Made by a program: the position numbers and the translations under genes
Notes under the pieces: generated by a model
What the model was told of the DNA's origin: nothing
Databases searched by the model: none
The model's input: the letters and a program-made list of their open reading frames with translations, nothing else
Shown: in pieces, positions 10,231-58,409 of the stretch
Position numbering within the stretch: the first letter of the stretch is position 1
Layout of the letters: every line of letters starts with the position of its first letter
NCBI GenBank assembly: GCA_018302785.1
Contig: JAGVZF010000013.1
Coordinates: 10,787-74,786, forward strand
Direction: 5' to 3'
Origin: Candidatus Woesearchaeota archaeon
Lineage (GTDB): Archaea; Nanobdellota; Nanobdellia; SCGC-AAA011-G17; JAGVZF01
Length of the DNA stretch: 64,000 nucleotides

Positions 10231-10620
10231 ATGACTGAGTTAGTTTACTGTGCTACACCATCGAGATTGAGTAATCTTACTGAAACAATTGTTGACTACG
10301 TTGCTAAAGAAGGTTACGCTCCCCTCCATCCCTTTTTGGCTATGCCATATAAATATTTTGAAGGGGGTATAGTTGGTAGAAACAAAACAATAGAGTATTG
10401 TTTTAGATTAGTAGACATTTGCCCTCACTTTTGGTTATTTGGAATATCGGAAGGTACACTTGAGGAATTAAGTCGTGCACAATCAAGTGACAAGATATTT
10501 AGATTTCCATTTTTGCATTTTGACCCAGAATGGAATGAGTTTTATCAGAATCTTGCCTCAAAGTATGGTGATCCATTAGCGAATCTATTTCCGATTCAGA
10601 GATTAACTAAGCAGAACTAG
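10231..10620 (+). CDS. Hypothetical protein, possibly with a nucleoside 2-deoxyribosyltransferase-like (DUF4406-like) fold
   Basis: LVYCATPSR...AKEGYAPLHPF and DICPHFWLFGISEGTLEELSRA resemble the iYiAGP / cD.v..l.gw..S.G...E pattern. Weak, from memory. Confidence 0.3.
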   Translation: MTELVYCATPSRLSNLTETIVDYVAKEGYAPLHPFLAMPYKYFEGGIVGRNKTIEYCFRLVDICPHFWLFGISEGTLEELSRAQSSDKIFRFPFLHFDPEWNEFYQNLASKYGDPLANLFPIQRLTKQN

Positions 10621-13000
10621 CATCCTTAAAAAAATGAAATATATTTTCTCCACTTGTTCTTTTTGCTGCTAATCTGTCACAAATCATTCTATGTTCGGTA
10701 TAACATTTTTTGCAATTACCCTTTTCCTCTTGCATACTTTTGTATCTTATATAATAATTAGGATCTTCTTTAAGAACTTCTTTTTCTGTAGCTATTTTAC
10801 AAACCAATTGAGGCATTATCATATGCATAGGATCATCTGAATCAAATAAAGTAATAGGAGAAAATCTTTGTGGTCTATATATTGAATGTGGTATTGTAAT
10901 TACTCTTTTGGTGTAGAATGCATTCTTATTCAATACAGTATAAATATTGTGAATTTCTATGTTCAATTCACTTTCGACAATTTGTTTTAGAAGCCATCCA
11001 TAAAAAAATGTTTGTTGTAAATATTTGTGTTCAATATATGGTTTTACACTATTAGTTTTTGTATCAATTATTACAATATCATAATTACTGTCATCTCTCT
11101 TTAAAAATAGATACGCATCAGGATGCATAGAAACTGAAAAACTAACTCCATCAATATTTAAGCTCCAAGAGAAAGGTGTTTCTGTGTAAAGATTCGAAGG
11201 TTTTGGTTCTAAGCCTGCTCTAGTTAATGTATCATAATGAACTAATCCTTCTAAGGGTGAACTTGACAATCTATGTATAGCTGTTCCTCTGATTTGCGCA
11301 GAAGACTCTAAGGTAGTTTTATCAGCAAATCTGAACAACTCTTCTAAGGTTTCAGAAGATGCATATTGAATTTGTTCTCTTACCAAACTCTTTGCAACAC
11401 TTTCAGACAAACCGCTAATTAGTTTTTCTAATGTACATCCTACATCTAATACACCACTCTGTTGAAACCTTTCCAAAGATCTAGTATCAACTTTTCCTCC
11501 TGTTGGCAGTCCTAATTCAGAACCCCTAAAATCTGCTTTTTCTTCCTTGATAGCACGCATGTTAAAAAATCCAGAAATCATATCTGAAGTTACAATTCTC
11601 TTACCGTCTAATTCTACAAACCATCTTCTATTAGACTTATCTAACGCTCTTAAACCATGATAAATTGATGCATCAGTCTTTAATAACTCTACAATCCTTG
11701 GTTCAATTCTGCAAAAACCTATCCTATGCACATAAGAAAAATCTCTTAAAATAGAAATCTCTCTTTCAGATAAAATTTCATCAGCTAAGTCTTGCAAATT
11801 AGGATGTTTATCTCCCAAATTTTCTTCAACTAATAAGAATGGGTATTTCCCACTAGAATCATATCTAACTATTTCTTGAATTTTAGGTCTAGTTAAACTA
11901 ACAGTTCTTCTTGAGTATTGATTGCTCCAAGTCATATACATATTATCAAATAAACCTATTAACCTAGCCATGGCAGTCGGATGACAGATTCCTAAAAAAG
12001 GCATTCTCTCAGGAGTATTAGCCATTATACCATGGTCCCCACCAACAAAATGAAATCTTAGTGGTTTTCCACTATAATATGCTGAATCATTAACTATTCT
12101 AGCACTATCTGATGTTTTCTCCATATATAAGGGAATTCCATTTAAATCATAGTTTCTTAAGGTTTTTACCACAAAGGGAAATAGCTGATCTAAAACCCAT
12201 GCAAATTTTAAAGCCATAATTTGATTATTACAATGTATTTCATATCTTTTCAATTCCAATGACCTTTGAAAATCAAATATTCTATCGTGGTTATCCTCTG
12301 GCATTAATAATTCTGGAGAAGATTGAAGTGCACTTCTGAATCTTTCAAAAGAAAACATATTAGGATCAAATCTTGAATTACCTTGTTTGGGGGATGTATC
12401 TTCAAATTTAGCTAATGTACCAAAACCAATTCCATCTATTTCAGCATCAATTTCTCTCTCAATTCTTTCTCTTAATATATGTTCAAGTCCAAAATTTCCA
12501 CCCTGTTGCAAAATTCTTTGAATATAAGTAACAGGTTGAACATAAAATAACAAAAATTGATCTAAAAACTCTATTGGAAACCTTTCGTTTATCTGTTCAA
12601 TAAATAATGTTGAAAAAAGATGCAAATTAGAAAATGGATCAATTCCTTCTTTTCTTCCGTTAATAAGACTCGTAGCAGTTAAACCATTAATTAAAATCGG
12701 AAGTTTATCTCTAAATAAATTTTCATCAATGGACAATTCCCTAACAAGTAAATCTTCATGCATTAGATATTTTTTCATCCTTCCAGTTTTTCTTGGGTTA
12801 GCAGATTCACCAAAAGCATTGTCTAAAATATTAACTAAACTTAAACCTGTACCACTTGGGCCAAGAATAAAATTTCGTTTTTTAATTGCACTTGCTAATT
12901 TAACAGAATCATCTAATTCTTTTTTCGCCAAAAATGGTCTACATATTTCTATTAGACTATATAATCTTTTTATCGAAAAAATAGTATCTACTTCTGCCAT
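10607..13000 (-). CDS. 797-aa protein: unknown about-520-aa N-terminal region with a degenerate P-loop, plus a C-terminal Cas4/AddB-like PD-(D/E)xK nuclease with a 4-Cys cluster
   Basis: Residues 572-667: GTAIH, HPD(628)AY, IID(646)TK(648)T, and QQTFFY (QxxxY). Cys522 plus C763-x2-C766-x7-C774, as in Fe-S RecB-family nucleases. The N-terminal ILGPSGTGLS is Walker-A-like with Lys replaced by Leu. Confidence 0.6.
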   Translation of the reverse strand: MAEVDTIFSIKRLYSLIEICRPFLAKKELDDSVKLASAIKKRNFILGPSGTGLSLVNILDNAFGESANPRKTGRMKKYLMHEDLLVRELSIDENLFRDKLPILINGLTATSLINGRKEGIDPFSNLHLFSTLFIEQINERFPIEFLDQFLLFYVQPVTYIQRILQQGGNFGLEHILRERIEREIDAEIDGIGFGTLAKFEDTSPKQGNSRFDPNMFSFERFRSALQSSPELLMPEDNHDRIFDFQRSLELKRYEIHCNNQIMALKFAWVLDQLFPFVVKTLRNYDLNGIPLYMEKTSDSARIVNDSAYYSGKPLRFHFVGGDHGIMANTPERMPFLGICHPTAMARLIGLFDNMYMTWSNQYSRRTVSLTRPKIQEIVRYDSSGKYPFLLVEENLGDKHPNLQDLADEILSEREISILRDFSYVHRIGFCRIEPRIVELLKTDASIYHGLRALDKSNRRWFVELDGKRIVTSDMISGFFNMRAIKEEKADFRGSELGLPTGGKVDTRSLERFQQSGVLDVGCTLEKLISGLSESVAKSLVREQIQYASSETLEELFRFADKTTLESSAQIRGTAIHRLSSSPLEGLVHYDTLTRAGLEPKPSNLYTETPFSWSLNIDGVSFSVSMHPDAYLFLKRDDSNYDIVIIDTKTNSVKPYIEHKYLQQTFFYGWLLKQIVESELNIEIHNIYTVLNKNAFYTKRVITIPHSIYRPQRFSPITLFDSDDPMHMIMPQLVCKIATEKEVLKEDPNYYIRYKSMQEEKGNCKKCYTEHRMICDRLAAKRTSGENIFHFFKDASSA

Positions 13001-13053
13001 AAAGTAAGTCTAAGAAATAAGTTTAAAAATTTATTTCAATTACAATATTCATA
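13001..13053. promoter_or_regulatory. 53-bp divergent intergenic region shared by the nuclease gene and the PolB-like gene
   Basis: AT-rich, with the TATA-like element TTTAAAAATTTATTT. Position only. Confidence 0.35.
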
Positions 13054-15705
13054 ATGAAAACAGACTTTGTCACTTTATTTCAGCAACCATCATCAAAAAT
13101 TCAGAAACTTAAGGCAGGTATAGACGTAACAGTTTGGGAATATGATGAAACTACTGGAATTAGTAATCCACATGTTCGCAGATTAACTTTAGAACAAAGA
13201 GTTCCGACAAGTTTATCAAGAAATCCTGATTTACAAACTTTAACAGAATCTACTGAAAAATATAAAACTGCATTAATAGATATTTATAAAACTAAACTTG
13301 ATAGAATAAATGAACAAATCAAGTCTGCTCGACCTGGAACAAAGCTGAGAGCAAAACTTGACGAAGAAAAGATTATTATCGAAGAATTCTTATCCAACAT
13401 AAACAGATTAATAAGATTAGAAGGACCTTTTTCCAATGGAAATTATCAAGCTTTCCATTTAGTTTCACCATTTATTGAGCATCAGCTATCAGACATATTT
13501 TTATGTTCAGAGTTTGTAAAAAATAGATATTTAAATAATACACGTCAGACTGCCATCGCACTTAATTTTCCATTTGGCATTATTAATGAAAGTAATGAAC
13601 CTACAGGTGCAAGAATTTCATTAGAAACTTTATTAGAAGCAAAATCTCTGGCTATTGATTTCGAAACTCATAATTGGAGATCAATACAGATAAAAGATGA
13701 GCTTCGGAGAGAGCCTTTAGAATTATTAAGAAAAAGATTCTTAGAACTAGTTTCTCAACATAACATTTCCTTTGATTCAAGAAGATTAGAATGGATGGAT
13801 ATAGAAGACTATGTTAAAGAAATTTCAGATTTAATAAATTTAACTAAAGATGAAAGAATTACTGTTGCTGCACTTATTAACCTGAGAGACAATGAAAATT
13901 ATGTTGTTACAACTTTTAATCCAGATCATGATTCAATAATGGTCAGGATTCCTGGACGTATTGAGGACAGAGAAGTAAGAATTGTTAAGGCATCAAATCA
14001 GTTCTCTCTAATACAAAAAGTAAATAGATTAATTCAACAAATAAATCCCCTTTTTATGTATGGCCATAATCAGATGGGGTTTGATTACCAAACTGCAGAA
14101 AGACTTACGAGAAATTTTAGAGCCGGAGTTAATGAAAAAAAACCACTGCAAAAAGCACAAGCTGCAGCAGGATTTATCACTCAAAGAATTCTACCTGGTA
14201 GAATAGATATTGATCCTTCTTTATATGCATTAAATTACTTAGATTGTTATAATAATAGACTTGACACTGTTTTTGAGAATGTAATTGGAATAAAATCTGC
14301 CAAGTCTCTCACTCAAGAGCAATTAGAAATTAAAACCAGAAACGCAGAAGCTGGAAATCAACATGATATTGATGATGTATTGTCATATTCAGCTCAAGAT
14401 GCCATGAAGTCCTTTTTACTAGGAGAAAGATTAAAACTGGAACACCTAATTCTCAGCACAATTCACTATAGTTTACCAGCTAGAATTGATTCTACTGGTA
14501 GAAAAACAATAGGTGAGGATTATTGGGTGAACTGGTGGTATAAACATAAAAAAACATTTCCCTCAAGAGAAATAATTAAATCTGTTGCTACCATAACAAC
14601 TAATGGAGAAGATAGACAAGTAAGGTACGAAGAGTTTAGACCAATAGATATTTTACAAAGTGAACTTAAGAGAATACCTGTACAAAAAGGAATTCATGAA
14701 GGGAAGCTTATTGCAGTGTTTCCATTTGCAGATGCATTTAATCAATTACTCTCTAGAGATCCAAATGTTGATTCCTTATATAAAAGGTTACAAGAAACTA
14801 GTGACCCCAAAGAAAAAATTAGAATCTTGAAATCAATAGATTCTTTACTTGAATATCCATTATTTATGCTTCTTGATAAAGCTACATCTGAAACAAAATT
14901 TGCTGCTTCATTTATGCTTGGATTTTCAGGATTAGAAAAAGAGAAATACCTAAGAATTACAGATAAAAATCTAGAAATGATAATCCATTTAGCCCAACCA
15001 GCACAAATAATTAATAGTTGTAGAGAATATTTGGTGCTGCAACCATCAGTAGATTTACAAATTCTAAATCAACTAACACAAAGTAATATAGCAATATATT
15101 TAGGAGATGGAAGATTTTTGTCAGGGTCAAGAGGAAGATATGCAGGAATTATAAATGATGAATTTATAATGTTTGGTATAGCAGACTTCCATTCAAACAA
15201 GGGATTTAGATGTGACTTTGAACGAAATTTCTATGAGTATTTTTTAAGACAAACTCTAATTAGCGGTGATCCAAAATCTGCTTTACTTTACTTAGTAGGC
15301 AGAGCTAAACAACTATCTCAAGGAACTATAAGTCAAGATGAGTTAAAATTTGATAGAACTGCTAGAAGAGACCATACTGATTATTCGGCTCAGGCAAGAC
15401 AAAGTTACATTAGAGACATGGCAGAACAAAAAACCAAAAAAGGAGATATTGTAAGGCCAAGAAGGACAGTTCAAGAACTTCAATATAAATTCTTTGGTAT
15501 TACTCCTAAAGCAGAAGATCAATATGGTTTATTTGAGGATACTTCAACAATAACTGCAGAAACTACTAAAGTTGGGACCATTTCTGAAGTAGTAGAATGG
15601 TTATTTATACCTAAAACAATTAAGGAAGTAAGACCAATTTTGGAGAAATTATACCATGGCAAAGGTAGAGTAGAAGACGTTGATGCTATATTAAGCCACA
15701 CCTAG
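13054..15705 (+). CDS. Family-B DNA polymerase homolog with intact DEDDy 3'-5' exonuclease motifs but substituted polymerase catalytic motifs
   Basis: ExoI LAID(202)FE(204)T, ExoII GHN(339)QMGFD(344)Y, ExoIII Y(445)SAQD(449). The motif A position reads AVFPFADAFNQ (canonical lDFxSLYPS). Motif C reads IYLGDGRF (canonical YGDTDS). A downstream KGFRCDFERNFYEYFL resembles the PolB thumb-proximal region. Confidence 0.65.
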   Translation: MKTDFVTLFQQPSSKIQKLKAGIDVTVWEYDETTGISNPHVRRLTLEQRVPTSLSRNPDLQTLTESTEKYKTALIDIYKTKLDRINEQIKSARPGTKLRAKLDEEKIIIEEFLSNINRLIRLEGPFSNGNYQAFHLVSPFIEHQLSDIFLCSEFVKNRYLNNTRQTAIALNFPFGIINESNEPTGARISLETLLEAKSLAIDFETHNWRSIQIKDELRREPLELLRKRFLELVSQHNISFDSRRLEWMDIEDYVKEISDLINLTKDERITVAALINLRDNENYVVTTFNPDHDSIMVRIPGRIEDREVRIVKASNQFSLIQKVNRLIQQINPLFMYGHNQMGFDYQTAERLTRNFRAGVNEKKPLQKAQAAAGFITQRILPGRIDIDPSLYALNYLDCYNNRLDTVFENVIGIKSAKSLTQEQLEIKTRNAEAGNQHDIDDVLSYSAQDAMKSFLLGERLKLEHLILSTIHYSLPARIDSTGRKTIGEDYWVNWWYKHKKTFPSREIIKSVATITTNGEDRQVRYEEFRPIDILQSELKRIPVQKGIHEGKLIAVFPFADAFNQLLSRDPNVDSLYKRLQETSDPKEKIRILKSIDSLLEYPLFMLLDKATSETKFAASFMLGFSGLEKEKYLRITDKNLEMIIHLAQPAQIINSCREYLVLQPSVDLQILNQLTQSNIAIYLGDGRFLSGSRGRYAGIINDEFIMFGIADFHSNKGFRCDFERNFYEYFLRQTLISGDPKSALLYLVGRAKQLSQGTISQDELKFDRTARRDHTDYSAQARQSYIRDMAEQKTKKGDIVRPRRTVQELQYKFFGITPKAEDQYGLFEDTSTITAETTKVGTISEVVEWLFIPKTIKEVRPILEKLYHGKGRVEDVDAILSHT

Positions 15706-15780
15706 CCCAGCAATAATTTTATAATCTTTGCTGTAATCTAAATTGAATAGTAAATATAAAATGTATATACAAATACTAAA

Positions 15781-16788
15781 ATGACATCTATTCTAGGTAT
15801 TCAAACAGATGCGGAAGATGATGAAGTTGTTATGTTGGCCGCAGACACCCAAGTAACTCTATATTCGGGTCCTAATTATAGTGAAGAAAAAGATCCTTAC
15901 CCACAATCTAAGGTTAGGGAAGTAAATGAGTCTACAGTAATTGCAATGTGTGGCACTTACGACAGATATGTTGAAAATCTTTTCACTTATTTAAGGGATA
16001 AAGATTATAGAAAATTTCTGTCAACCTTACATGATAGAAAAACAATACCAGAATTGGATAATATCTCAAATCAACTAAGGTATTTGAAAAGAGACGTACG
16101 CAGGAGATTAAGAGAACTTCTAGAAAGTAGAAGTCAGCCTACATCAGAGTTGGAAGAATTTGTGATCCAATTAACAAAAGGTCAACCTGAAACTAAATCA
16201 GCACTAGATTTATTTATTACAGGCTTAATACAAAATATTCTAACACCCCCAGACCCTATACAAGAAGCACTTAGAAGCAGCGTATTCTATGAGGCTGCTG
16301 ATTTAAACAGACACTTCACAAGAAGAAATAGAGAAAAGGAAGAAGAAATTGGGTTAGATGACTATACAGAATTTGCAATCGCCACAAATTCTCCACTTGG
16401 GTTAAACACTGTAGATCTATTCGGTGGAATAAAGAAATTACAAATCGGATCTGGCGATATAGATTATATTAGTATGGGAAGTGGCTCTGAATTTTTGGAC
16501 CAATACTTAAGACAGGGTACTTATAGGGATGATCCAGAACTAAAAGAATATTCCCCAGAGTTTCACACAAATTTTAGAATTGATTCTATCTCATCTAGAT
16601 GCGCCTATGAACTTGCTTATGGAGCTATGATGTATGCAACAAAAAGAGATCAACATAGTGGTGGAGTTATTGAAATCGTGACACTTCGCCCAAATATTAT
16701 AATCCCCCATAAAGTTACGATCAAGAAAGCAATTCGTGAAGCAGAGAAGGCAGCTGTAAGATCTGAGGCGGCAAAATTGTCTTACTAA
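15781..16788 (+). CDS. Proteasome-beta/HslV-like Ntn-hydrolase without a propeptide and with an about-100-aa helical insertion
   Basis: MTSILGI..VVMLAADTQVT (Thr directly after Met, the aaDt motif), SKVREV..VIAMCGTYD (Lys33-like), YISMGSGSEFL (GSGS), and ATKRDQHSGGVIEIVTL. Confidence 0.6.
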   Translation: MTSILGIQTDAEDDEVVMLAADTQVTLYSGPNYSEEKDPYPQSKVREVNESTVIAMCGTYDRYVENLFTYLRDKDYRKFLSTLHDRKTIPELDNISNQLRYLKRDVRRRLRELLESRSQPTSELEEFVIQLTKGQPETKSALDLFITGLIQNILTPPDPIQEALRSSVFYEAADLNRHFTRRNREKEEEIGLDDYTEFAIATNSPLGLNTVDLFGGIKKLQIGSGDIDYISMGSGSEFLDQYLRQGTYRDDPELKEYSPEFHTNFRIDSISSRCAYELAYGAMMYATKRDQHSGGVIEIVTLRPNIIIPHKVTIKKAIREAEKAAVRSEAAKLSY

Positions 16789-18136: not shown

Positions 18137-19396
18137 ATGAACAACGACGACAAATACATAGATTTATTAGAATTTTTGCCACAAAATATTATATGTGGGA
18201 AATTAGAAAAACAATTCCCACTAAGTGTAAAATTAGATAATAAATATTTGTCTCTTTCATATATTACAAATTTGTCAAACCAAACTGGACAAGTTGGAGT
18301 TAAAGAATATTCTTTAACAATTCCAAGATTTCTTTTCAAAAATATTAGAACATTTGAAGTTATTGGATTGCTCCAAGCTGAAATGGGAAAAACTAACAAT
18401 GGAAATCTATCATTTGCAAATCATGAATACAAATTAATTAATTATGTTTTATATTGGTTTAAAAAAGAATTAGAATTTGATGTGAAAAATTGGAAATGGA
18501 GCATAAAACTAAATATGCAAGAACCTACTGACTTAAATTATAAACCCAAAATAGAGAACAAAGTAATAAAGCATTGGACGGAAAGAACTAAAATAACATT
18601 AGAACAATCTTATCCCAAAAAAGTAACTTATATCAGTAATACCAAAAATATCAAATTAAAAGATCATGATTATGGCACGCTGGTTTTAGAACATAAGAAT
18701 AATTTATTTAGTCAAATTATAAAGAATTTTGTAAAAATAATTACATATAGAGAAATAGTAAACTATGAAGCACAACTAATCCAGGGATATATGAAGGCTA
18801 TAATTGCTGGAGAAGGTTGTATAGAAATTTCAAAACAGGATAAAAAGTTTAGGGTACATATTTCGGCATCAAAAGAAGAAGAGAAAGAAATATTCTATCA
18901 ATGTCTAAGAAAGTTAGGGGTTGAAAGCATAAAATACAAGGGAGATAAATTAGTGATTTCAAAGCGTAAAAACAATGTCCAACTTCTTAAACAACGTTTA
19001 ATGACTTTATCTCCAGCAAAATACGCCAAATTTCTAAACATGATGCAACAATATCCAAACATCAAAGAAGAAACTGGCTACTTCAAAGAAAAAGGCAAAA
19101 ACGTTTGGAATAAAATTCCTCAAGAAATAATAGATAAAATTATTGAACTTTATAACTCTGGAATTACAAACACAAAAGAAATAGCAGAAAGATTAGGATT
19201 ACATATTCTAAAAGTTCAAAGAGTTCTCCAAATTAATAATTTAGGAAAAAGAATAACAACAATTCCAGAATCCAAAAGAATGGAAATTGCCAAATATGTT
19301 AAAGATCATCCCGAATTAAATCATGAACAAATTGCAAAACAATTTAATGTTAGTAAATCTGCAGTTAGTAGAGCTAACTTAAAGTATAATCTCTAA
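18137..19396 (+). CDS. Free-standing LAGLIDADG-like (double-motif) protein with two C-terminal HTH modules
   Basis: VIGLLQAEMGK and YMKAIIAGEGCIE (LAGLIDADG-type motifs with Glu). C-terminal ITNTKEIAERLGLHILKVQRVL and NHEQIAKQFNVSKSAVSRA. Confidence 0.6.
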   Translation: MNNDDKYIDLLEFLPQNIICGKLEKQFPLSVKLDNKYLSLSYITNLSNQTGQVGVKEYSLTIPRFLFKNIRTFEVIGLLQAEMGKTNNGNLSFANHEYKLINYVLYWFKKELEFDVKNWKWSIKLNMQEPTDLNYKPKIENKVIKHWTERTKITLEQSYPKKVTYISNTKNIKLKDHDYGTLVLEHKNNLFSQIIKNFVKIITYREIVNYEAQLIQGYMKAIIAGEGCIEISKQDKKFRVHISASKEEEKEIFYQCLRKLGVESIKYKGDKLVISKRKNNVQLLKQRLMTLSPAKYAKFLNMMQQYPNIKEETGYFKEKGKNVWNKIPQEIIDKIIELYNSGITNTKEIAERLGLHILKVQRVLQINNLGKRITTIPESKRMEIAKYVKDHPELNHEQIAKQFNVSKSAVSRANLKYNL

Positions 19397-20470: not shown

Positions 20471-20698
20471 ATGCAAATTGATACGACAAAAATGAGTTCT
20501 AGAGGGCAAGTAGTTATACCTTTAGAAATGAGAAAAGACATTAAAGAAGGAGATAAGTTAATTGTTATTAGAAAAGATGATGAAATAATTATTAAAAAGT
20601 CTATTCCTGAGTCAGCTCTTTTATCTGAAAAATCATTGGCTAAAGCATGGCTGTCAAAAGAGGATGAAGAGGCCTTTGCATATTTTCAAAAAAAATGA
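20471..20698 (+). CDS. AbrB/SpoVT/MazE-type antitoxin
   Basis: SSRGQVVIPLEMRKDIKEGDKLIV. Its stop overlaps the toxin start (ATGA). Confidence 0.75.
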   Translation: MQIDTTKMSSRGQVVIPLEMRKDIKEGDKLIVIRKDDEIIIKKSIPESALLSEKSLAKAWLSKEDEEAFAYFQKK

Positions 20699-21027
20699 AG
20701 TTTAAAAAGTATGATATTATTTTAGTTAATTTTCCTTTCTCAGATCTTAAGACAAGTAAAATCAGACCGGCAGTGGTTATTAAGTCATTGGAAGGGGAAA
20801 ATACTATTCTTTGTCAAATCACAACTAAAAAACGAAGTATATCTAAATACCAAGTAGTTTTAAAACGAAAATCTTGTGAAGGAGATATAAGATTTGACTC
20901 TAATATTTATATTGATATGATATTTACTCTACATGAAAGCCTTGTAATTGGTAAAATTGGCTATATAAGAGATGAAAGAATTAAAGAAGAAATTCAGAAT
21001 AAAATAAAAGAAATGTTTGATCTCTAA
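20695..21027 (+). CDS. MazF/PemK-family toxin (endoribonuclease-type)
   Basis: KYDIILVNFPFSDLKTSKIRPAVVI is typical of PemK/MazF. Paired with the upstream antitoxin. Confidence 0.75.
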   Translation: MKFKKYDIILVNFPFSDLKTSKIRPAVVIKSLEGENTILCQITTKKRSISKYQVVLKRKSCEGDIRFDSNIYIDMIFTLHESLVIGKIGYIRDERIKEEIQNKIKEMFDL

Positions 21028-24570: not shown

Positions 24571-24785
24571 TGATTCCAACAACAGAAGAGCTACTAGAGT
24601 TTATTAGTAAAAAAGAATTAGTAAATCTAACTATGATAGCTAAAAATTATGATATTAAAAATGCTACTGCTTCTGATATTGTTAATGATTTAGTCAAAAA
24701 AAAATTAGTGGAAATAAAACAGATTGGAGGATCAAAAATAGTTATTTTAAAAAAGAGGATTACCAATGAAAAGAGGTCAAATTAG
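24570..24785 (+). CDS. Small winged-helix (MarR/TrmB-like) DNA-binding protein
   Basis: LVNLTMIAKNYDIKNATASDIVNDLVKKKLVEIKQIGGSKIV. Confidence 0.5.
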   Translation: MIPTTEELLEFISKKELVNLTMIAKNYDIKNATASDIVNDLVKKKLVEIKQIGGSKIVILKKRITNEKRSN

Positions 24786-26760
24786 TATATTCATAATATT
24801 AGGAATTATTATAACAATTTTAATAGTAACAATAGTAATATTTAGAAATTCAATATTTAAAAATGAATTTGAAGTTCAATCAGAAAAATCTTTACAAGTT
24901 CCTGAGCAAATAAAACCAATTAAATCTTATATTGATTCATGTGTAGAATTAACAAGTAAAGAAGCAATAGATATTTTAGGATCACAAGGCGGTTATATTA
25001 ATATTCCAATAGACAGAGTTCCAAGAGGTCCATTTAATCAATTCTCTAATTCATTAGAAGTTGTTCCAAATAGCTTAGTTGCTTATTGGTTTTATGAAAC
25101 ATCTAATAATATTCAAAAAACTCAAATTCCATCATTACAATTTATGGAAAATGAAATAAGTAGATATGTAAATTTAAATTTAGATGAATGCCTAAAAGAA
25201 TTATTTTCATCAGAAGAATACACAAAGTATTCAATAAATTTTCAAGGAAGTCCTGAAACTCAAACTAGTATAAATACAAATTATGTAGAAGTAACTGTTA
25301 ATTATCCAGTAAATATTTATCTTAATGAAATAGGAAAATTAATAGAAACTCATTATGTAAAGTTAGACATTCCATTAGGAGAGTTATATGAAACTTCAAA
25401 TGAAATATTAAATAAAGAGTATAATGAAAATTTCTTTAGTAAAAAAACAATAGACATGCTTTCTGTTTATGAAGAAGTTCCATATTCTGGAATTTCTCTA
25501 GACTGTAATACTCCAACATGGTCAAAATCTCAAGTAATTAAAAATTTAAAAAACATAGTAAGCTTAAATATTGGAGCTACAAAATTAAAAGGATCTCAAT
25601 ATACTTTAAGTGATGAATCTCATAAATACTTTGAATTAGAAACTAGCACAAATAATAATCAAATAAATTCATTTTTCTTATATTCACAAAATTGGCCATT
25701 ATCTATAGAAATTTATCCATCAGAAAATGAAATATTATCAGCAGACCAAATTACAAGAGCAACTGGAAATAAAGCAACTGAAGTTCTTTCTAAGATTCTT
25801 TGTTTAAATACATATAATTTCATCTATGACATAAAATATCCAATTTTAATTTCACTTGAAAAAGATAATTACATATTTCAATATGGCTTACAAGTTATAA
25901 TAGATAATAATCAACCAAAAACAAATGAATTAGGAGATCTAGATCTTGATGAAGTTCCATTTGATATTTGTTCTAGAAAAGTTACTCCAATAACTGTAAA
26001 TGTTCTAGGGAAAAATGGAAATCAACTAAAACCAATAGAAGCAGAAGTATCATATCAATGCTTTGCAACATCTTGTTATATAGGTAAAACTCAGCTTGAT
26101 GAATTTAATGATTATAAATTAACAGCTTTATTTCCAGAATGCTTAAATGGTCAGGTAATAGCTGAAAATAAAGATTACTTTACAACAAAAGAAATTATAG
26201 ACTCTAATGAAGAAACTTCTGTTTCTGTAGTAATGAAGCAATATTATAATTTTAATTATGATATTAAAGTCATAGAAAAATCATCTGGATATATAAGAGA
26301 TCTAGCAGAAGATGAAGATGTAATGTTTGAATTTAAGAATTTAGATGAAGATTATACTTTATATTTATCAAAAGATGAAAATGATTTGAAATTAATAGAA
26401 GGAAACTATCAAATAAAATCATATTTATCTAAAAAAAGTGAAACTAAATTTAAAATAGATCAACAAGAAATTTCTAAATGCATAAAAATTCCTAGAGCAG
26501 GCATTCTAGGTTTATTCCTTAAAACAGAGAAATGTGCAACTTCAACAATAGAAGCAACAGAATTAGATGATGTAATTGTTGGAGGAATTGAAACAGAAAT
26601 TAAAATAGATCCATTAAAATCTAATAAAGATAAAGTATCATTATATACTGTATTTGATAAAATTCCAACTTCATATGATGATTTAAGCGAAATAGAAAAA
26701 AACATAGGAAGTAATTCACAAATTCCATCATATAAAAAGCCGGAGTTCCAAAATGAATAA
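24766..26760 (+). CDS. 664-aa extracellular protein with an archaeal class III (prepilin-type) signal peptide
   Basis: The N-terminus MKRGQISIFIILGIIITILIV fits the K/R-G|Q-x-S prepilin-peptidase pattern. The remainder has no recognisable domain. Confidence 0.5.
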   Translation: MKRGQISIFIILGIIITILIVTIVIFRNSIFKNEFEVQSEKSLQVPEQIKPIKSYIDSCVELTSKEAIDILGSQGGYINIPIDRVPRGPFNQFSNSLEVVPNSLVAYWFYETSNNIQKTQIPSLQFMENEISRYVNLNLDECLKELFSSEEYTKYSINFQGSPETQTSINTNYVEVTVNYPVNIYLNEIGKLIETHYVKLDIPLGELYETSNEILNKEYNENFFSKKTIDMLSVYEEVPYSGISLDCNTPTWSKSQVIKNLKNIVSLNIGATKLKGSQYTLSDESHKYFELETSTNNNQINSFFLYSQNWPLSIEIYPSENEILSADQITRATGNKATEVLSKILCLNTYNFIYDIKYPILISLEKDNYIFQYGLQVIIDNNQPKTNELGDLDLDEVPFDICSRKVTPITVNVLGKNGNQLKPIEAEVSYQCFATSCYIGKTQLDEFNDYKLTALFPECLNGQVIAENKDYFTTKEIIDSNEETSVSVVMKQYYNFNYDIKVIEKSSGYIRDLAEDEDVMFEFKNLDEDYTLYLSKDENDLKLIEGNYQIKSYLSKKSETKFKIDQQEISKCIKIPRAGILGLFLKTEKCATSTIEATELDDVIVGGIETEIKIDPLKSNKDKVSLYTVFDKIPTSYDDLSEIEKNIGSNSQIPSYKKPEFQNE

Positions 26761-27742
26761 ACAATTAATTTCATTACTAATGATTGTACTTTTTGTTAGT
26801 TTACCATTTGCTGTAGCTCAAGAAAGAGAAGATCTTGGGGAAGTAATTAATATTAATGTTAATACTTATCAACCAGCAGTAGTTCCATCTAATATTTTGG
26901 CAGAGCAAGATGTTCCAGTCTATGCATATCTAGAAGGAACTACATTAGGATCTTTACTTTTACAAAATAATGCTGTAAACATTCCTCCATTGTATAAACT
27001 ACCAAAAATATCAAAAATAAACATTGCAATAAAAGATCCTAGTAATTATGTAATTTCTGTTCAAGCTAAACCACCATATAAAAAAATTTATGCAAGAGAT
27101 AATAATTCAGTAGACTTAGGTTATTTAATTGTAAGACTAAGAAAAATAAAAAAAGAAAATGAAGTTCCAGATGTTATTAATGTAAATTTAACAGCAAAAA
27201 TAAACTTTGAATTAGATGAAGGTTTTAGTATATTTGGGACTCAAGATTTACTTTTAAGAGAATCAAATGATGAAAATAACTGGAAATCTACTAGAACTGA
27301 AGAATCTGCATTTTGGAATAAAAAAGGATATGTAAGAGCTTATAATATTAAAAGTGGAAAAGCAAGCTTTGAAGTTTATGATGGTTCATTTGATAGTTTA
27401 ACAACATTAAATGACAAAACATCTGATTTTGTTTCAAACTCAATTAGATTTAAAACAGGAGAGTTTGAAGATTCAAATTTACTAGATGATAGATTTAGAT
27501 TGAAAGTGCAAAGAATTTCAGTTCCAGAACCAAAAGCAAATTTAAGAATTATTGATTCCTCTGGAAAAATCTCTGATAAAACAGTAACAAAAGGGATGTC
27601 TATATTAGAAGGAAGTTCATATAGAGTAAAAGAAATAAGACCAAGAAGACCAACAGATAAAGGTCAACTAGAAGAAATTATAATTCAAAAAGGAAATGAT
27701 AAACAAATTTATCTAAGAACTTTATATCAATCCGGTAATTGA
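26753..27742 (+). CDS. Secreted protein (Sec signal, AVA-Q), unknown domain; probably the N-terminal part of a longer frameshifted gene
   Basis: MNKQLISLLMIVLFVSLPFAVAQE. The ORF end overlaps the open frame carrying the lytic-transglycosylase domain. Confidence 0.5.
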   Translation: MNKQLISLLMIVLFVSLPFAVAQEREDLGEVININVNTYQPAVVPSNILAEQDVPVYAYLEGTTLGSLLLQNNAVNIPPLYKLPKISKINIAIKDPSNYVISVQAKPPYKKIYARDNNSVDLGYLIVRLRKIKKENEVPDVINVNLTAKINFELDEGFSIFGTQDLLLRESNDENNWKSTRTEESAFWNKKGYVRAYNIKSGKASFEVYDGSFDSLTTLNDKTSDFVSNSIRFKTGEFEDSNLLDDRFRLKVQRISVPEPKANLRIIDSSGKISDKTVTKGMSILEGSSYRVKEIRPRRPTDKGQLEEIIIQKGNDKQIYLRTLYQSGN

Positions 27743-28175
27743 TGTAGAATCTGGAGGAGATTCTAAAGCAGTTTCATGCACAGGTCCAGCTGGTCTTATG
27801 CAACTAAGTATAGATGCTGCAAATGATGTTAGAACTTCATTAGGCTCAGAATCAGAATATCCAAAAATTCAACATTATCAATTAAATGGACAAGGAAATC
27901 CAATATGCAGCTGCAGTTATTCCAAAGATTGTAGAGATGAGTCTATCGACTGGAGATTTAATAAGGATAAAAATGTTAAAGCAGGAACTCAATATTTACT
28001 TAAATTAATCAACAAATATAATAAAGATTTAAGGCTTGCATTATTGGCATATAATGCTGGTCCTGGTTCAGTAGACCAAGTCTGTCAAACTCCACCTACA
28101 AATATTAAAGAAATAAATTTTGATTATGATTCCTGCAAAAATAACAATATGTGCAAAAAATCTTTAATAAATTAA
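27717..28175 (+). CDS. Lytic transglycosylase (SLT) domain segment in a shifted frame, with no start codon upstream of the catalytic Glu
   Basis: The open frame from 27717 reads ELYINPVIDVESGGDSKAVSCTGPAGLMQL...LLAYNAGPGSV (E-S, GLMQ and AYNAG motifs). The first ATG (27798) lies after the catalytic ES. Confidence 0.6.
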   Translation, partial: ELYINPVIDVESGGDSKAVSCTGPAGLMQLSIDAANDVRTSLGSESEYPKIQHYQLNGQGNPICSCSYSKDCRDESIDWRFNKDKNVKAGTQYLLKLINKYNKDLRLALLAYNAGPGSVDQVCQTPPTNIKEINFDYDSCKNNNMCKKSLIN

Positions 28176-57590: not shown

Positions 57591-58409
57591 CTAATCTTTA
57601 ATATAGGAATCTAGAACTTCTTTAAGTATTTTTTGTTTTCTCTTTATTGAAAAATTAATTAAATTATGATATCTAACTAAATTTTCTTTACCATAAATAT
57701 AAACTTCATACTGCATTTTAGTACTTCCAAACCCAGAATGAATCCTACTTTTGATTTTATGATTTATTCTAAGATCACTCAAAAATTTACATAATAAATT
57801 AACAGTATCTTTATTAGAATTAGAAAATGAAATCCACCTGCAAGCTCTGCGTCTATTGGATAAATTGTAACCAGCTACTGAACCTTCTGAATCAAAAAGG
57901 CCTTTCAAAAAGTATATTTTGTGGTTTTTATTGGGAAAAGAGTTTTCATTAAATGCAAATTGTCTTATGAATTTAGCTACCTCAACAGAGCTTAAACGTA
58001 CATGATATAAATTATTATAGCCTAAACCAAAACTTACTGGTAGCTTAGCCCACCTTTCCAACTTTTCTTTAAAGTAAATAGCGAAATCTTTATCTTTAAC
58101 ACGAAGAATTAATCCTGCTGAAGTTCCATGTGAAGATTTACTGTAAAAACAATGACCATCACCACGCTCTACTCCTAATATGTATGCTAGTTCTTTGGAG
58201 GATCTGAAGGCAGATTTTGGAAGTCTATGGTGTTTTATATCATTTATTTTCAATCCAGCTGCCTTTTTAGATCTGTTGAATCCTCCAAAATATCTTAAGC
58301 AAGCTTGATATAGTATTGCAGGAATTTCTCGAGCACTTGGAGAATGTTTTAATTCTTTGCTTCTAGCCTTTAGTTCAGCAACAATCTTTTTCTTAGACCA
58401 CTTTTTCAT
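57591..58409 (-). CDS. Free-standing double-motif LAGLIDADG homing-endonuclease-like protein
   Basis: LAYILGVERGDGH and IYFLKGLFDSEGSV. N-terminal repeat RSKELKHSPSAREI...YFGGFNRSKKAAGL. Confidence 0.7.
   Translation of the reverse strand: MKKWSKKKIVAELKARSKELKHSPSAREIPAILYQACLRYFGGFNRSKKAAGLKINDIKHHRLPKSAFRSSKELAYILGVERGDGHCFYSKSSHGTSAGLILRVKDKDFAIYFKEKLERWAKLPVSFGLGYNNLYHVRLSSVEVAKFIRQFAFNENSFPNKNHKIYFLKGLFDSEGSVAGYNLSNRRRACRWISFSNSNKDTVNLLCKFLSDLRINHKIKSRIHSGFGSTKMQYEVYIYGKENLVRYHNLINFSIKRKQKILKEVLDSYIKD

What the first reader, a model, noticed from the sequence alone, without database searches (positions are those of the whole stretch)
10607..16788. Divergent module: Cas4/AddB-like Fe-S nuclease giant, polymerase-dead but exonuclease-intact PolB, and a propeptide-less proteasome-like peptidase
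Three large ORFs are organised around one 53-bp divergent promoter region (13001-13053).

(1) On the minus strand, a 797-aa protein has a C-terminal 230 aa that carries every RecB-family PD-(D/E)xK motif plus a 1+3 Cys pattern, as in Fe-S nucleases. Its N-terminal 520 aa has only a Lys-less P-loop remnant.

(2) On the plus strand, an 883-aa family-B polymerase homolog keeps all three DEDDy exonuclease motifs. The polymerase motif A and C acidic residues are replaced.

(3) Seventy-five nt downstream is a 335-aa Ntn hydrolase of the proteasome-beta/HslV type, which starts Met-Thr.

I know of no described defence, repair or mobile-element system that combines these three activities. The pairing of a dsDNA-end nuclease with a 3'-5' exonuclease scaffold and a threonine peptidase suggests either a nucleic-acid surveillance/degradation machine with proteolytic output or a domesticated element remnant. 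The block also looks compositionally distinct from the flanking metal cluster: Arg-rich rather than Lys-rich proteins and higher GC by eye.
Basis: partly seen in the sequence, partly recalled or inferred. Interest (0 to 1): 0.88.

Follow-up and report, generated by a model that had tools for sequence, protein, structure and literature searches.

The report
Paired exonuclease-only PolB and Cas4-like nuclease
A group of tiny archaea (Woesearchaeota) always keeps two genes back-to-back on one shared promoter, a DNA polymerase relative that can only trim DNA and a large iron-sulfur nuclease, which looks like an undescribed DNA-end processing enzyme; the third gene in the finding, a peptidase, is only a neighbour.

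Summary
The three ORFs and nearly all motif observations are real. Only two of the genes form a conserved unit.

**The conserved pair.** The 797-aa protein has an orphan N-terminal region of about 515 aa and a C-terminal Cas4/RecB-type PD-(D/E)XK nuclease with four invariant Cys. The 883-aa protein has a full-length family-B polymerase fold. Its DEDDy exonuclease site is invariant and a KxY-like motif is retained, but no polymerase carboxylates are conserved. The two genes lie head-to-head in every related locus with upstream DNA: 17 full-length pairs, down to about 26% identity, including a variant with a split nuclease gene. Most spacers are 51-55 bp, with a usually palindromic TATA box about 26 nt from each ATG. 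This is the known geometry of archaeal shared-TATA bidirectional promoters. Flanking genes are housekeeping and differ between loci. I found no relatives in viral contigs or defence-system models.

**The peptidase.** The Met-Thr Ntn peptidase belongs to a separate, highly divergent proteasome-beta/HslV-like family. It is adjacent only in the closest lineage. Elsewhere it occurs without the pair, once next to an HslU/ClpX-type ATPase.

**Best reading (inferred).** The pair is a housekeeping two-nuclease DNA-end or flap processor with no motor domain. It is a new variant built from known domains, and I found no published description.

The parts
10607..13000 (-). Gene for the 797-aa nuclease-family protein, partner 1 of the conserved pair.
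   Evidence: ORF. The family has 121 representatives at E<=1e-3 among 1.84 billion proteins. It lies head-to-head with the PolB-like gene in every locus that has upstream DNA.
11456..13000 (-). Orphan N-terminal region, aa 1-515. Invariant residues include N105, G106, D121, K198, E294, E392, R431, E433, R451 and R492. In some relatives it is encoded as a separate N-half ORF of about 320 aa.
   Evidence: The AF2 model is confident, but Foldseek finds no match for this part in PDB or BFVD. No Pfam hit in any of 26 family members scanned. Split variant seen in L033.
10610..11455 (-). C-terminal Cas4/RecB-type PD-(D/E)XK nuclease domain, aa 516-797. It carries the GTxxH helix, D628, D646-x-K648, Q663-x3-Y667, and four Cys (C522, C763, C766, C774) that probably hold an Fe-S cluster.
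   Evidence: Invariant columns. Foldseek matches to RecE, SSO0001 Cas4, type I-C Cas4, ACE1 and MGME1 at probability 0.97-1.0. Matches to viral Cas4-like exonucleases. Pfam PDDEXK_1 is sub-threshold in 7 of 16 members.
10628..10651 (-). Peptide GENIFHFF (aa 784-791), 6 residues from the C-terminus. It fits a pattern Gxx(I/L)xx(F/L)(F/L) and is a possible PCNA-interaction box. This is inference only.
   Evidence: By my reading of the printed C-termini, similar peptides recur in roughly a third of the full-length family members.
13001..13053 (.). 53-bp divergent intergenic region. I read it as a single bidirectional archaeal promoter that gives leaderless mRNAs in both directions.
   Evidence: In 10 loci the spacer is 51-55 bp. 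In 6 of these a palindromic ATTTATAAAT-type box is centred 26.5 nt from the nuclease ATG and 26.5-29.5 nt from the PolB-like ATG. TATA-like motifs peak at -30 to -22 from the ATG across the window's genes. Shared-TATA promoters with 49-52 bp between start sites are documented in Thermococcales.
13022..13033 (.). Central TATA-like element TTTAAAAATTTA, about 26-27 nt from each start codon.
   Evidence: Read directly from the sequence. It is less perfectly palindromic here than in L007, L010 and L025.
13054..15705 (+). Gene for the 883-aa PolB-like protein, partner 2 of the conserved pair.
   Evidence: ORF. AF2 pLDDT 86.5. Foldseek matches Thermococcales family-B polymerases over the full length, E about 5e-21, TM up to 0.60. 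The family profile matches KOD/9N/Tgo polymerases at E=5e-7.
13636..14463 (+). DEDDy 3'-5' exonuclease domain, about aa 195-470. ExoI is D202-x-E204 (13657-13665), ExoII is N339-x3-F343-D344 (14068-14085), ExoIII is Y445-x3-D449 (14386-14400).
   Evidence: Invariant in 14 family members and in the distant L031 and L033 homologues. Supported by HMM and hhalign alignments to KOD polymerase and E. coli Pol II.
14464..15498 (+). Palm, fingers and thumb region, aa 471-815, without polymerase catalytic carboxylates. The motif A strand ends in FPF (aa 546-562, nt 14689-14739). The motif C position has no conserved Asp pair. The KxY-like motif SGSRGRYAG (aa 690-698, nt 15121-15147) is retained.
   Evidence: Acidic-column census. 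Motif columns. A collinear but statistically weak hhalign alignment to E. coli Pol II pairs GSRGRYAG with GSKKRYAG and puts the motif A Asp in a gap. No Pfam DNA_pol_B hit.
15520..15543 (+). QYGLFEDT (aa 823-830) in a predicted disordered linker. It resembles the QLxLF clamp-binding motif. This is inference only.
   Evidence: pLDDT is below 50 for aa 820-837. A Q(L/Y/M/S)xLF motif occurs at the matching place in 7 of 14 family members.
15781..16788 (+). Neighbouring gene that is not part of the conserved pair. It encodes a 335-aa Met-Thr Ntn hydrolase of a divergent proteasome-beta/HslV-like family, with a helical insertion of about 130 aa (roughly aa 60-195).
   Evidence: Pfam Proteasome E=6e-4, TIGR03634 E=4e-5, PHROG HslV family E=3e-5. 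The family profile matches proteasome beta chains in PDB at E=2e-4. Adjacent to the pair only in the window and L008/L034. Own TATA-like box at 15751-15762.

Best explanation
**What the unit is.** The functional unit is a two-gene, head-to-head module that is inherited vertically in Woesearchaeota/Nanobdellota.

- **Gene 1** encodes a family-B polymerase paralogue. It keeps a complete DEDDy 3'-5' exonuclease site and the KxY/thumb elements that hold a primer-template duplex. It has lost the two-metal polymerase carboxylates, so it is an exonuclease on a polymerase scaffold.
- **Gene 2** encodes a large protein. Its C-terminal third is a Cas4/RecB-type PD-(D/E)XK nuclease with a 4-Cys (Fe-S) staple. 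Characterised enzymes of this class act on 5' ends, single-stranded DNA or flaps. It is preceded by an orphan region of about 515 aa.
- **Promoter.** Both genes are read from one symmetric TATA box that lies about 26 nt from each ATG, so they are co-expressed as leaderless mRNAs.

**Proposed mechanism (inferred).** The two proteins work together as a DNA-end or flap processing enzyme without a motor domain. The PolB-like subunit docks on a duplex end or primer terminus and trims the 3' strand. The Cas4-like subunit cuts the 5' strand. Both may be tethered to PCNA. The role would be chromosomal replication or repair, such as end resection, stalled-fork processing or Okazaki flap processing.

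**What is shown and what is inferred.** Shown: the domain folds, the active-site conservation and losses, the strict synteny, the promoter geometry and the housekeeping context. Inferred: physical complex formation, nuclease polarities, Fe-S binding, PCNA binding and the cellular pathway.

**The third gene.** The Ntn peptidase downstream is an independent HslV-like protease gene.
For: **Synteny.**
- The nuclease gene lies immediately upstream and divergent in every related locus that has upstream DNA. This covers 17 distinct full-length pairs plus partial ones.
- The arrangement persists in a far branch (L031, profile scores of only 178-199 bits, 52-bp spacer) and in a variant with a split nuclease gene (L033, 51-bp spacer).
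- Pairwise distances of the two proteins track each other: r=0.96, Mantel p about 5e-4, mean distances 0.68 and 0.67.

**Folds and active sites.** The KxY motif GSRGRYAG aligns with GSKKRYAG of E. coli Pol II.

**Promoter.**
- 51-55 bp spacers with a central palindromic TATA box.
- A genome-wide TATA peak at about -26 from the ATG.
- Published 52-bp and 49-bp shared-TATA bidirectional promoters in T. kodakarensis and P. furiosus (bioRxiv 10.1101/2020.01.31.928960; PMC6640164).

**Housekeeping context.**
- Neighbours vary between loci. They include ribosomal proteins, TopA, aminoacyl-tRNA synthetases, aIF5B, eIF2-gamma, S6e and MutL.
- No cas1, and no integrase Pfam annotation, among the called genes. 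The L016-L029 flanks were not annotated.
- No PADLOC hit.
- No relatives in viral contigs.

**Established knowledge (from my own memory, not re-read here).**
- Cas4 SSO0001, AddB, RecE, Exo5 and Dna2 are 5'-directed or single-strand nucleases.
- PolB exonuclease domains work 3'-5'.
Against: - There is no direct evidence that the two proteins bind each other. A mirror-tree correlation is expected for any two vertically co-inherited genes.
- I detected no ATPase or helicase, so processive resection would need an unknown motor.
- The 515-aa N-terminal region has several invariant charged residues and no recognisable fold. It may carry the key activity and change the picture.
- The putative PCNA motifs occur in only about a third to a half of members.
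- I could not survey whole genomes. I do not know whether these organisms lack Mre11-Rad50, HerA-NurA, Fen1 or Dna2, or which active polymerases they carry.
- The polymerase motif C mapping is ambiguous between two placements (hairpin aa 652-662, or TSE at aa 611-613). Neither gives a conserved Asp pair.
- In the window itself the central TATA element is only weakly palindromic.
Confidence: 0.5

Rival explanations
1. The PolB-like protein is mainly a non-catalytic replisome scaffold, as proposed for archaeal PolB2 or the C-terminal half of Pol epsilon. The nuclease-family protein is its accessory subunit. The pair would then be part of the replication fork machinery and not a nuclease machine.
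For: Inactivated PolB paralogues with proposed structural roles are documented (PMC2527604; PMC7544198). Context is housekeeping. Clamp-binding-like peptides are possible.
Against: All seven DEDDy residues are invariant out to about 26% identity, and so are all nuclease catalytic residues and the four Cys. That argues that catalysis is under selection. PolB2 and the Pol epsilon C-terminal half have lost their exonuclease motifs.
Confidence: 0.15
2. This is a DNA-degrading pair for nucleotide salvage. DPANN archaea with poor nucleotide biosynthesis would degrade acquired or host DNA from both strand ends to feed salvage pathways.
For: The two predicted nucleases have complementary polarity. The family is restricted to small-genome DPANN lineages.
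Against: I did not test for secretion signals or membrane anchors. Neighbouring genes are not salvage enzymes. A retained primer-duplex-binding KxY/thumb and possible PCNA motifs fit work on the organism's own replication or repair intermediates better. Unregulated cytoplasmic DNA degradation would be hazardous.
Confidence: 0.1
3. One reading: a three-component nucleic-acid surveillance or defence machine in which nuclease sensing is coupled to a threonine-peptidase output.
For: The three genes are adjacent in the window and in L008/L034. A MazE/PemK pair lies about 4 kb downstream in the window. A small PD-(D/E)XK gene follows Ntn relatives in L037/L038.
Against: The Ntn gene is missing from the neighbourhood of the pair in every other lineage. 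It occurs without the pair elsewhere and has its own promoter-like box. There are no PADLOC hits. The pair sits among core genes and diverges in step with its host, unlike patchy defence islands.
Confidence: 0.05
4. The pair is a domesticated or decaying remnant of a self-replicating mobile element, such as a casposon or a virus with PolB plus a Cas4-like nuclease.
For: PolB and Cas4-like genes co-occur in casposons and archaeal viruses (literature). BFVD holds viral Cas4-like exonucleases similar to the C-terminal domain. The block has slightly higher GC and Arg content.
Against: No cas1 and no integrase Pfam annotation among the called genes around the pair; terminal repeats were not searched for, and the L016-L029 flanks were not annotated. 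No relatives in 2.9 million viral contigs. One copy per locus. Polymerase loss is ancestral to the whole family, while the nuclease sites are under strong constraint. If there was a mobile origin, it is ancient and the genes are now cellular.
Confidence: 0.1
5. The PolB-like protein is still an active polymerase with a non-canonical active site, as primer-independent PolBs and PolB2 manage with a reduced motif C.
For: The B2 group was once called inactive yet keeps one Asp, and piPolBs lack the first Asp but still polymerise (PMC7544198). Semi-conserved acidic residues exist at E613 (82%) and at position 658 (9 of the 13 family members that cover it).
Against: No acidic residue is conserved at the motif A position. 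It is either a hydrophobic residue or a deletion. No position in the motif C region is invariant-acidic. Motif B (KxxxNSxYG) is unrecognisable and the fingers are about 40 residues shorter. There is no Pfam DNA_pol_B hit in any member.
Confidence: 0.05

Closest known systems
Archaeal 'inactivated' PolB2 family (Rogozin et al. 2008, PMC2527604) and the inactivated C-terminal PolB module of Pol epsilon (PMC2669801)
   Same: A family-B polymerase paralogue that is conserved although its polymerase metal-binding motifs are disrupted. It is found in cellular chromosomes.
   Different: PolB2 and the Pol epsilon C-terminal half have also lost the exonuclease motifs, and PolB2 keeps the distal Asp of YGDTD. 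Here the exonuclease site is fully invariant, no motif C Asp is conserved, and the gene is locked to a nuclease partner. The family is confined to Woesearchaeota-type DPANN.
AddAB / AdnAB / RecBCD helicase-nuclease end-resection complexes
   Same: Two-subunit logic with nucleases for the two strand polarities. Like this protein, AddB has a large N-terminal body followed by a C-terminal RecB-type nuclease with a 1+3 Cys Fe-S staple.
   Different: I detected no helicase or ATPase fold. The TM-score to AddB/AdnA is 0.12-0.14, and the 'P-loop' is not conserved. The 3'-5' activity would come from a DEDDy exonuclease on a PolB scaffold, not from a second RecB nuclease. The Cys spacing is CX2CX7C here; as I recall it, the usual spacing is CX2CX5C.
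Solo-Cas4 nucleases of DPANN archaea (Hudaiberdiev et al. 2017, PMC5704561)
   Same: Cas4-like PD-(D/E)XK Fe-S nuclease domain encoded outside CRISPR loci in small-genome archaea.
   Different: As I recall, solo-Cas4 proteins are about 200 aa and stand alone. Here the domain is the C-terminal third of a 700-950-aa protein with an orphan N-terminal region and an obligate PolB-like neighbour. The sequence is too divergent to reach the Pfam PDDEXK_1 threshold.
MGME1 plus the Pol gamma exonuclease in degradation and processing of linear mitochondrial DNA; also Dna2/Exo5 with Pol delta in flap processing (recalled from my own knowledge)
   Same: A Cas4-fold nuclease cooperates with the 3'-5' exonuclease of a replicative-type polymerase on DNA ends or flaps. 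MGME1 is among the structural matches.
   Different: In those systems the polymerase is active and the genes are unlinked. This is a functional analogy only.
HslV / proteasome beta Ntn hydrolases (for the third gene)
   Same: Met-Thr start, so Thr1 is exposed after Met removal, as in HslV. Equivalents of Asp17, Lys33, Gly47 and the GSGS motif are conserved. In one relative (L039) an AAA_2 (ClpX/HslU-type) ATPase gene follows.
   Different: Scores are far below family thresholds: 19.9 against 22.4 bits for Pfam, and 23 against 224 bits for TIGR03634. Most members carry a helical insertion of about 130 aa. No ATPase partner lies next to it in the window.

Membership tests
Family B DNA polymerase (fold and superfamily) | Full-length PolB architecture: N-terminal domain, exonuclease, palm, fingers, thumb. 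| tested here: met
   Foldseek matches the AF2 model to Thermococcales PolB structures at E about 5e-21 over about 900 aligned columns, TM up to 0.60. The family profile hits the exonuclease and thumb of KOD polymerase collinearly, E=5e-7.
Family B DNA polymerase (fold and superfamily) | DEDDy exonuclease motifs ExoI (DxE), ExoII (Nx3FD) and ExoIII (Yx3D). | tested here: met
   D202, E204, N339, F343, D344, Y445 and D449 are invariant. Alignments to Pol II and KOD polymerase agree.
Family B DNA polymerase (active enzyme) | Polymerase carboxylates: motif A DxxSLYPS and motif C (Y)xDTD. | tested here: not met
   The motif A position is hydrophobic or deleted (FPF). No conserved Asp pair appears in either candidate motif C placement. 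No PF00136 hit. The mapping rests on model secondary structure and a statistically weak hhalign alignment.
Family B DNA polymerase (active enzyme) | KxY motif that contacts the primer strand. | tested here: met
   SGxKGRFAG is conserved, and GSRGRYAG aligns with GSKKRYAG of E. coli Pol II.
Cas4 / RecB-family PD-(D/E)XK nuclease with Fe-S staple | Catalytic motifs D...(D/E)xK plus QxxxY and the N-terminal GxxxH helix. | tested here: met
   H576, D628, D646, K648, Q663 and Y667 are invariant in 16 sequences. D, DxK and Q are kept in distant L031.
Cas4 / RecB-family PD-(D/E)XK nuclease with Fe-S staple | Four Cys in a 1+3 arrangement. | tested here: met
   C522, C763, C766 and C774 are invariant. 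The spacing is CX2CX7C. Actual cluster binding cannot be tested here.
Cas4 / RecB-family PD-(D/E)XK nuclease with Fe-S staple | Structural similarity to solved Cas4/RecB-type nucleases. | tested here: met
   RecE, SSO0001, type I-C Cas4, ACE1 and MGME1 match at probability 0.97-1.0, E from 9e-4 to 2e-2, through the C-terminal domain only. Viral Cas4-like exonucleases also match.
Cas4 / RecB-family PD-(D/E)XK nuclease with Fe-S staple | Curated sequence-model threshold (Pfam PDDEXK_1 / Cas_Cas4). | tested here: not met
   13.9 bits against a cut-off of 22. The best family member reaches E=0.0018.
CRISPR-associated Cas4 proper | Adjacency to cas1/cas2 or a CRISPR array. | tested here: not met
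   No cas genes among the called genes around the pair. I did not run a repeat search for CRISPR arrays, and the L016-L029 flanks were not annotated.
AddB / AdnA-type helicase-nuclease | N-terminal (possibly inactivated) SF1 helicase/RecA-like domains with a P-loop. | tested here: not met
   Long Foldseek alignments to AddB/AdnA have TM 0.12-0.14 and probability 0.07-0.23. The GPSGTGLS string is not conserved. No ATPase Pfam hit.
Proteasome beta / HslV Ntn hydrolase (third gene) | N-terminal Thr nucleophile plus equivalents of Asp17, Lys33, Gly47 and Ser129. | tested here: met
   M1-T2, D22, K44, G58 and G233/G235 are invariant in 7 sequences. GSGS is present in 5 of 7.
Proteasome beta / HslV Ntn hydrolase (third gene) | Curated model thresholds, or a solved or predicted fold match. 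| tested here: inconclusive
   Pfam 19.9 against 22.4 bits. TIGR03634 23 against 224 bits. PHROG HslV E=3e-5. PDB profile E=2e-4, with collinear N- and C-terminal stretches.
   The pair is present in all loci. The Ntn gene is present only in the window lineage and L008/L034. Ntn relatives L035-L040 lack the pair.
Archaeal shared-TATA bidirectional promoter | About 50 bp between divergent start sites with one central symmetric TATA box. | tested here: met
   ATG-to-ATG spacers of 51-55 bp in 10 loci, with a central ATTTATAAAT-type palindrome in 6. The geometry matches T. kodakarensis (52 bp) and P. furiosus (49 bp). Actual start sites cannot be tested here.

The most novel reading that the evidence does not exclude
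The pair is a previously unrecognised class of two-subunit DNA-end or flap processing enzyme that has no motor domain and is tethered to PCNA. A polymerase-dead PolB acts as a dedicated 3'-5' exonuclease and DNA-end clamp. An Fe-S Cas4-like nuclease carries a new-fold catalytic or regulatory N-terminal domain of about 515 aa. Together they replace or complement canonical archaeal resection or flap machinery (Mre11-Rad50/HerA-NurA, Fen1/Dna2) in Woesearchaeota.
Probability: 0.25. Interest if true: 0.75.

Novelty: new variant of a known kind. Interest (0 to 1): 0.6.

Why it matters
**Polymerase evolution.** Known 'dead' family-B polymerases (PolB2, the Pol epsilon C-terminal half, poxvirus F12) have lost both activities and are thought to be scaffolds. 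This family shows the opposite split. The polymerase is lost, while the exonuclease and the DNA-holding elements are strictly kept. It would be a polymerase converted into a dedicated nuclease, locked to a second nuclease of probably opposite polarity.

**DPANN biology.** If the pair is a repair or replication enzyme, it adds a lineage-specific component to the poorly understood DNA maintenance of DPANN archaea.

**A testable promoter example.** The pair is a compact natural case of two functional genes sharing one TATA box.

**An orphan domain.** The well-modelled 515-aa N-terminal region is a candidate new domain.

**What lowers the interest.** The claim of a nuclease-protease machine falls away, which removes the most exotic part of the original finding.

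Tried and rejected
- **Single-sequence PDB searches.** No hits for the two large proteins. Only family profiles and structure models gave answers.
- **N-terminal 515 aa of the nuclease protein.** It has no match in PDB or BFVD by Foldseek. Pfam found nothing across 26 family members. There is no homology to the PolB-like partner. The region stays unassigned.
- **AddB-like inactivated helicase or P-loop remnant.** Rejected, because the string is not conserved and there is no fold match.
- **Defence system.** No PADLOC hits.
- **Phage or virus origin.** PHROG hits were generic only. Two scans of viral contigs found no relatives.
- **Ntn gene as a third module member.** Rejected by HMM and jackhmmer scans of all loci and by a metagenome scan.
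- **Sigma-70 promoter scan.** Irrelevant for an archaeon and not enriched.
- **RNA genes.** Rfam and tRNA scans found nothing in the region.
- **Residue-level alignment of the palm to E. coli Pol II.**
  - hhalign on the full profile aligned only ExoII.
  - A permissive local alignment of the C-terminal halves was collinear but statistically weak (probability 1.8%). It left two possible motif C placements.
  - A forced global alignment failed.
- **Reference PolBs from the phage collection.** Too few useful sequences came back.
- **Composition as a sign of horizontal transfer.** The shift is real but small, and other genes in the window, including TFB, share it.

Full report
**1. Observation.**
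The window comes from a Woesearchaeota (Nanobdellota, DPANN) metagenome-assembled genome. Identical proteins are deposited as hypothetical proteins J4455_02110 and J4455_02115. The three ORFs sit exactly as described: 10607-13000(-) 797 aa, 13054-15705(+) 883 aa and 15781-16788(+) 335 aa. The divergent spacer is 53 bp and the second gap is 75 nt. Curated libraries gave only sub-threshold hits:
- PDDEXK_1, E=0.054.
- DNA_pol_B_exo1, E=9e-4.
- Proteasome, E=6e-4.
- TIGR03634, E=4e-5.

**2. The PolB-like protein.**
Only 14 relatives were found by word-indexed search, and those that carry a source name are labelled Woesearchaeota or Nanobdellota.

*Fold.* The family profile hits Thermococcales family-B polymerases in PDB at E=5e-7, with collinear exonuclease and thumb stretches. 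The AF2 model (pLDDT 86.5, pTM 0.84) matches the same enzymes over the full length, with E about 5e-21 and TM up to 0.60.

*Exonuclease site.*
- ExoI (D202, E204), ExoII (N339, F343, D344) and ExoIII (Y445, D449) are invariant.
- They are also kept in two very distant homologues, L031 and L033.
- ExoII aligns with the E. coli Pol II motif.
- ExoIII aligns with KOD Y311/D315 (the residue numbers are from my own knowledge).

*Polymerase half.*
- No acidic residue is conserved at the motif A position. The strand ends in FPF, and in a permissive hhalign alignment the Pol II 'DYKS' falls in a gap.
- Motif C can be placed in two ways. One is the predicted beta-hairpin at aa 652-662. The other is 'TSE' at aa 611-613.
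- Neither placement gives a conserved Asp pair. The best columns are E613 at 82% and position 658 at 9 of 13 members.
- The KxY motif survives: GSRGRYAG against GSKKRYAG of Pol II.

I conclude that polymerase catalysis is lost across the whole family, while the exonuclease and the grip on duplex DNA are retained. The residue-level palm mapping is the weakest step. It rests on secondary-structure order and spacing plus a statistically weak alignment.

**3. The nuclease-family protein.**
Sixteen aligned relatives show invariant H576, D628, D646-x-K648, Q663/Y667, and C522 plus C763/C766/C774. A far relative keeps the same residues apart from Y667.

The AF2 model (pLDDT 87.8) matches RecE, Cas4 SSO0001, type I-C Cas4, Argonaute-associated ACE1 and MGME1, but only through its C-terminal domain. 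BFVD gives only viral PD-(D/E)XK and Cas4-like nucleases.

The N-terminal region of about 515 aa is confidently modelled and has many invariant charged residues, yet it has no match:
- No structural match in PDB or BFVD.
- No Pfam hit in any of 26 family members scanned.
- No similarity to its partner protein.

The 'P-loop remnant' lies in a variable, gapped segment, and alignments to AddB/AdnA have random-level TM scores. The AddB-like reading is therefore rejected.

An exhaustive HMMER search of 1.84 billion representative proteins found only 121 hits. These include full-length distant members and separate N-half (about 320 aa) and C-half (about 350 aa) proteins. So the family is rare.

**4. 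Synteny.**
The nuclease gene lies immediately upstream and divergent wherever DNA upstream of a PolB-like gene was available. This holds for:
- Contigs that carry the homologues.
- 14 GTDB species representatives.
- The distant L031, with profile scores of only 178-199 bits and a 52-bp spacer.
- L033, where the nuclease gene is split into two ORFs, with a 51-bp spacer.

Seventeen distinct full-length pairs give a distance correlation of r=0.96 (Mantel p about 5e-4), with equal mean divergence of 0.68 and 0.67. This shows co-inheritance. It does not prove a physical interaction.

The flanking genes differ between loci and are core genes: ribosomal proteins L18e/L13/S9, TopA, aminoacyl-tRNA synthetases, aIF5B, eIF2-gamma, S6e, ParA/MinD and MutL. 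I found:
- No cas1, and no integrase Pfam annotation, among the called genes. The flanks of L016-L029 were not annotated.
- No PADLOC match.
- No relatives in IMG/VR viral contigs.

**5. Shared promoter.**
In 10 loci the ATG-to-ATG spacer is 51-55 bp. In six of them the longest palindrome is an ATTTATAAAT-type TATA box, centred 26.5 nt from the nuclease ATG and 26.5-29.5 nt from the PolB-like ATG. The window's own version, TTTAAAAATTTA at 13022-13033, is central but less symmetric.

Across the window's genes, TATA-like motifs peak at -30 to -22 from the ATG (13 of 53 genes). Leaderless transcription therefore seems to be the norm in this genome.

This geometry equals that of documented archaeal bidirectional promoters:
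- T. kodakarensis: divergent start sites 52 bp apart around a shared TTATAAA (10.1101/2020.01.31.928960).
- P. furiosus: 49 bp, BRE-TATA-BRE, verified in vitro (PMC6640164).

A few loci have longer spacers of 94-185 bp.

**6. The Ntn peptidase.**
It belongs to a small, very divergent proteasome-beta/HslV-like family of 7 sequences.
- All start MT(T/S)ILGI.
- The equivalents of Asp17 (D22), Lys33 (K44) and Gly47 (G58) are invariant. The GSGS motif is present in 5 of 7.
- The profile against PDB gives E=2e-4 to proteasome beta chains.
- The PHROG HslV family hit has E=3e-5.

It is adjacent to the pair only in the window and its closest relative L008/L034. Five other relatives lie in unrelated contexts:
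- One is followed by an AAA_2 (ClpX/HslU-type) ATPase.
- Two are followed by a small PD-(D/E)XK protein and an integrase.

It also has its own TATA-like box about 25 nt upstream of its ATG. It is therefore a neighbour of the pair and not a component.

**7. Composition.**
The block is 31.7% GC against 28.6% for the window, and it is Arg-rich. The shift is about 2 SD, and TFB and other genes share it, so it does not indicate foreign origin.

**8. Mechanism (inferred).**
The pair combines two parts:
- A DEDDy 3'-5' exonuclease on a DNA-gripping polymerase scaffold.
- A Cas4/RecB-type Fe-S nuclease, a class whose characterised members act on 5' ends, single strands or flaps.

Both are co-expressed from one TATA box and inherited with the core genome. 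This is best explained as a housekeeping two-nuclease DNA-end or flap processor without a motor domain.

Recurrent short peptides hint at PCNA tethering, but each occurs in only part of the family:
- Q(L/Y)xLF, in a disordered linker of the PolB-like protein.
- Gxx(I/L)xx(F/L)(F/L), at or near the nuclease C-terminus.

Rivals considered were a pure scaffold, nucleotide salvage, a defence machine, a mobile-element remnant and a cryptic polymerase. They are weighed in the rival section.

**9. Comparison and novelty.**
Inactivated PolBs (PolB2, the Pol epsilon C-terminal half) and solo-Cas4 proteins of DPANN are known. I found no description of this pair. What appears new:
- An exonuclease-only PolB.
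- The large Cas4-like protein with an orphan N-terminal region.
- Their obligate head-to-head pairing.

It is a new variant built from known domains and not a new kind of system. Interest is moderate to high for archaeal replication and repair specialists.

Noticed in passing
L039:3582-5605 (also L040): A shorter (257-258 aa) member of the Met-Thr Ntn family lacks most of the helical insertion. In L039 it is followed directly by a 391-aa AAA_2 (ClpX/HslU-type) ATPase gene, which suggests an archaeal HslVU-like pair.
   Followed up: partly
L038:8007-10035 and L037:2373-4401: In two metagenome loci the Ntn homologue is followed by a small (217 aa) PDDEXK_1-like protein, a 197-aa ORF and a XerC/D-type integrase.
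   Followed up: no
window 39494-43417 (+): The large-subunit gene of ribonucleotide reductase carries an intein with a LAGLIDADG homing endonuclease (Hint and Intein_splicing hits).
   Followed up: no
window 18137-19396 (+) and 57591-58409 (-): Two free-standing LAGLIDADG-type ORFs. The first (419 aa, with several HTH motifs) sits just after the L18e-L13-S9 ribosomal protein genes. The second also has an HNH_repeat.
   Followed up: no
window about 20471-21027 (+): A MazE/PemK toxin-antitoxin pair lies about 4 kb downstream of the block. Coordinates are transferred from L001 17418-17974.
   Followed up: no
window 28151-33223 (+); also 24766-27742 (+): A giant 1690-aa ORF has no significant Pfam domain. 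The two preceding ORFs (664 and 329 aa) also have no hits.
   Followed up: no
window 10231-10620 (+): A 129-aa ORF with a sub-threshold DUF7768 hit overlaps the 3' end of the nuclease gene by 14 nt in convergent orientation. The gene lists of the related loci L007-L015 show no 129-aa gene at the corresponding place.
   Followed up: partly
window 13233-13410 (aa 60-119 of the PolB-like protein): The AF2 model shows a long two-helix (coiled-coil-like) insertion in the N-terminal domain, which as far as I recall canonical archaeal PolBs lack. It could be a docking arm for the partner protein.
   Followed up: no
L010:5090-5641 (-): In one lineage an RNase T/DEDDh exonuclease gene lies directly downstream of the nuclease-family gene. 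TopA lies next to the pair in L007, and a same-sized gene without Pfam hits is at the matching place in L012; MutL lies about 6 kb downstream in L010. These are scattered DNA-metabolism neighbours and not a conserved pattern.
   Followed up: no
window-wide: TATA-like TTTAWAW motifs cluster 22-30 nt upstream of start codons (13 of 53 genes). This suggests that this Woesearchaeote mostly uses leaderless mRNAs.
   Followed up: partly
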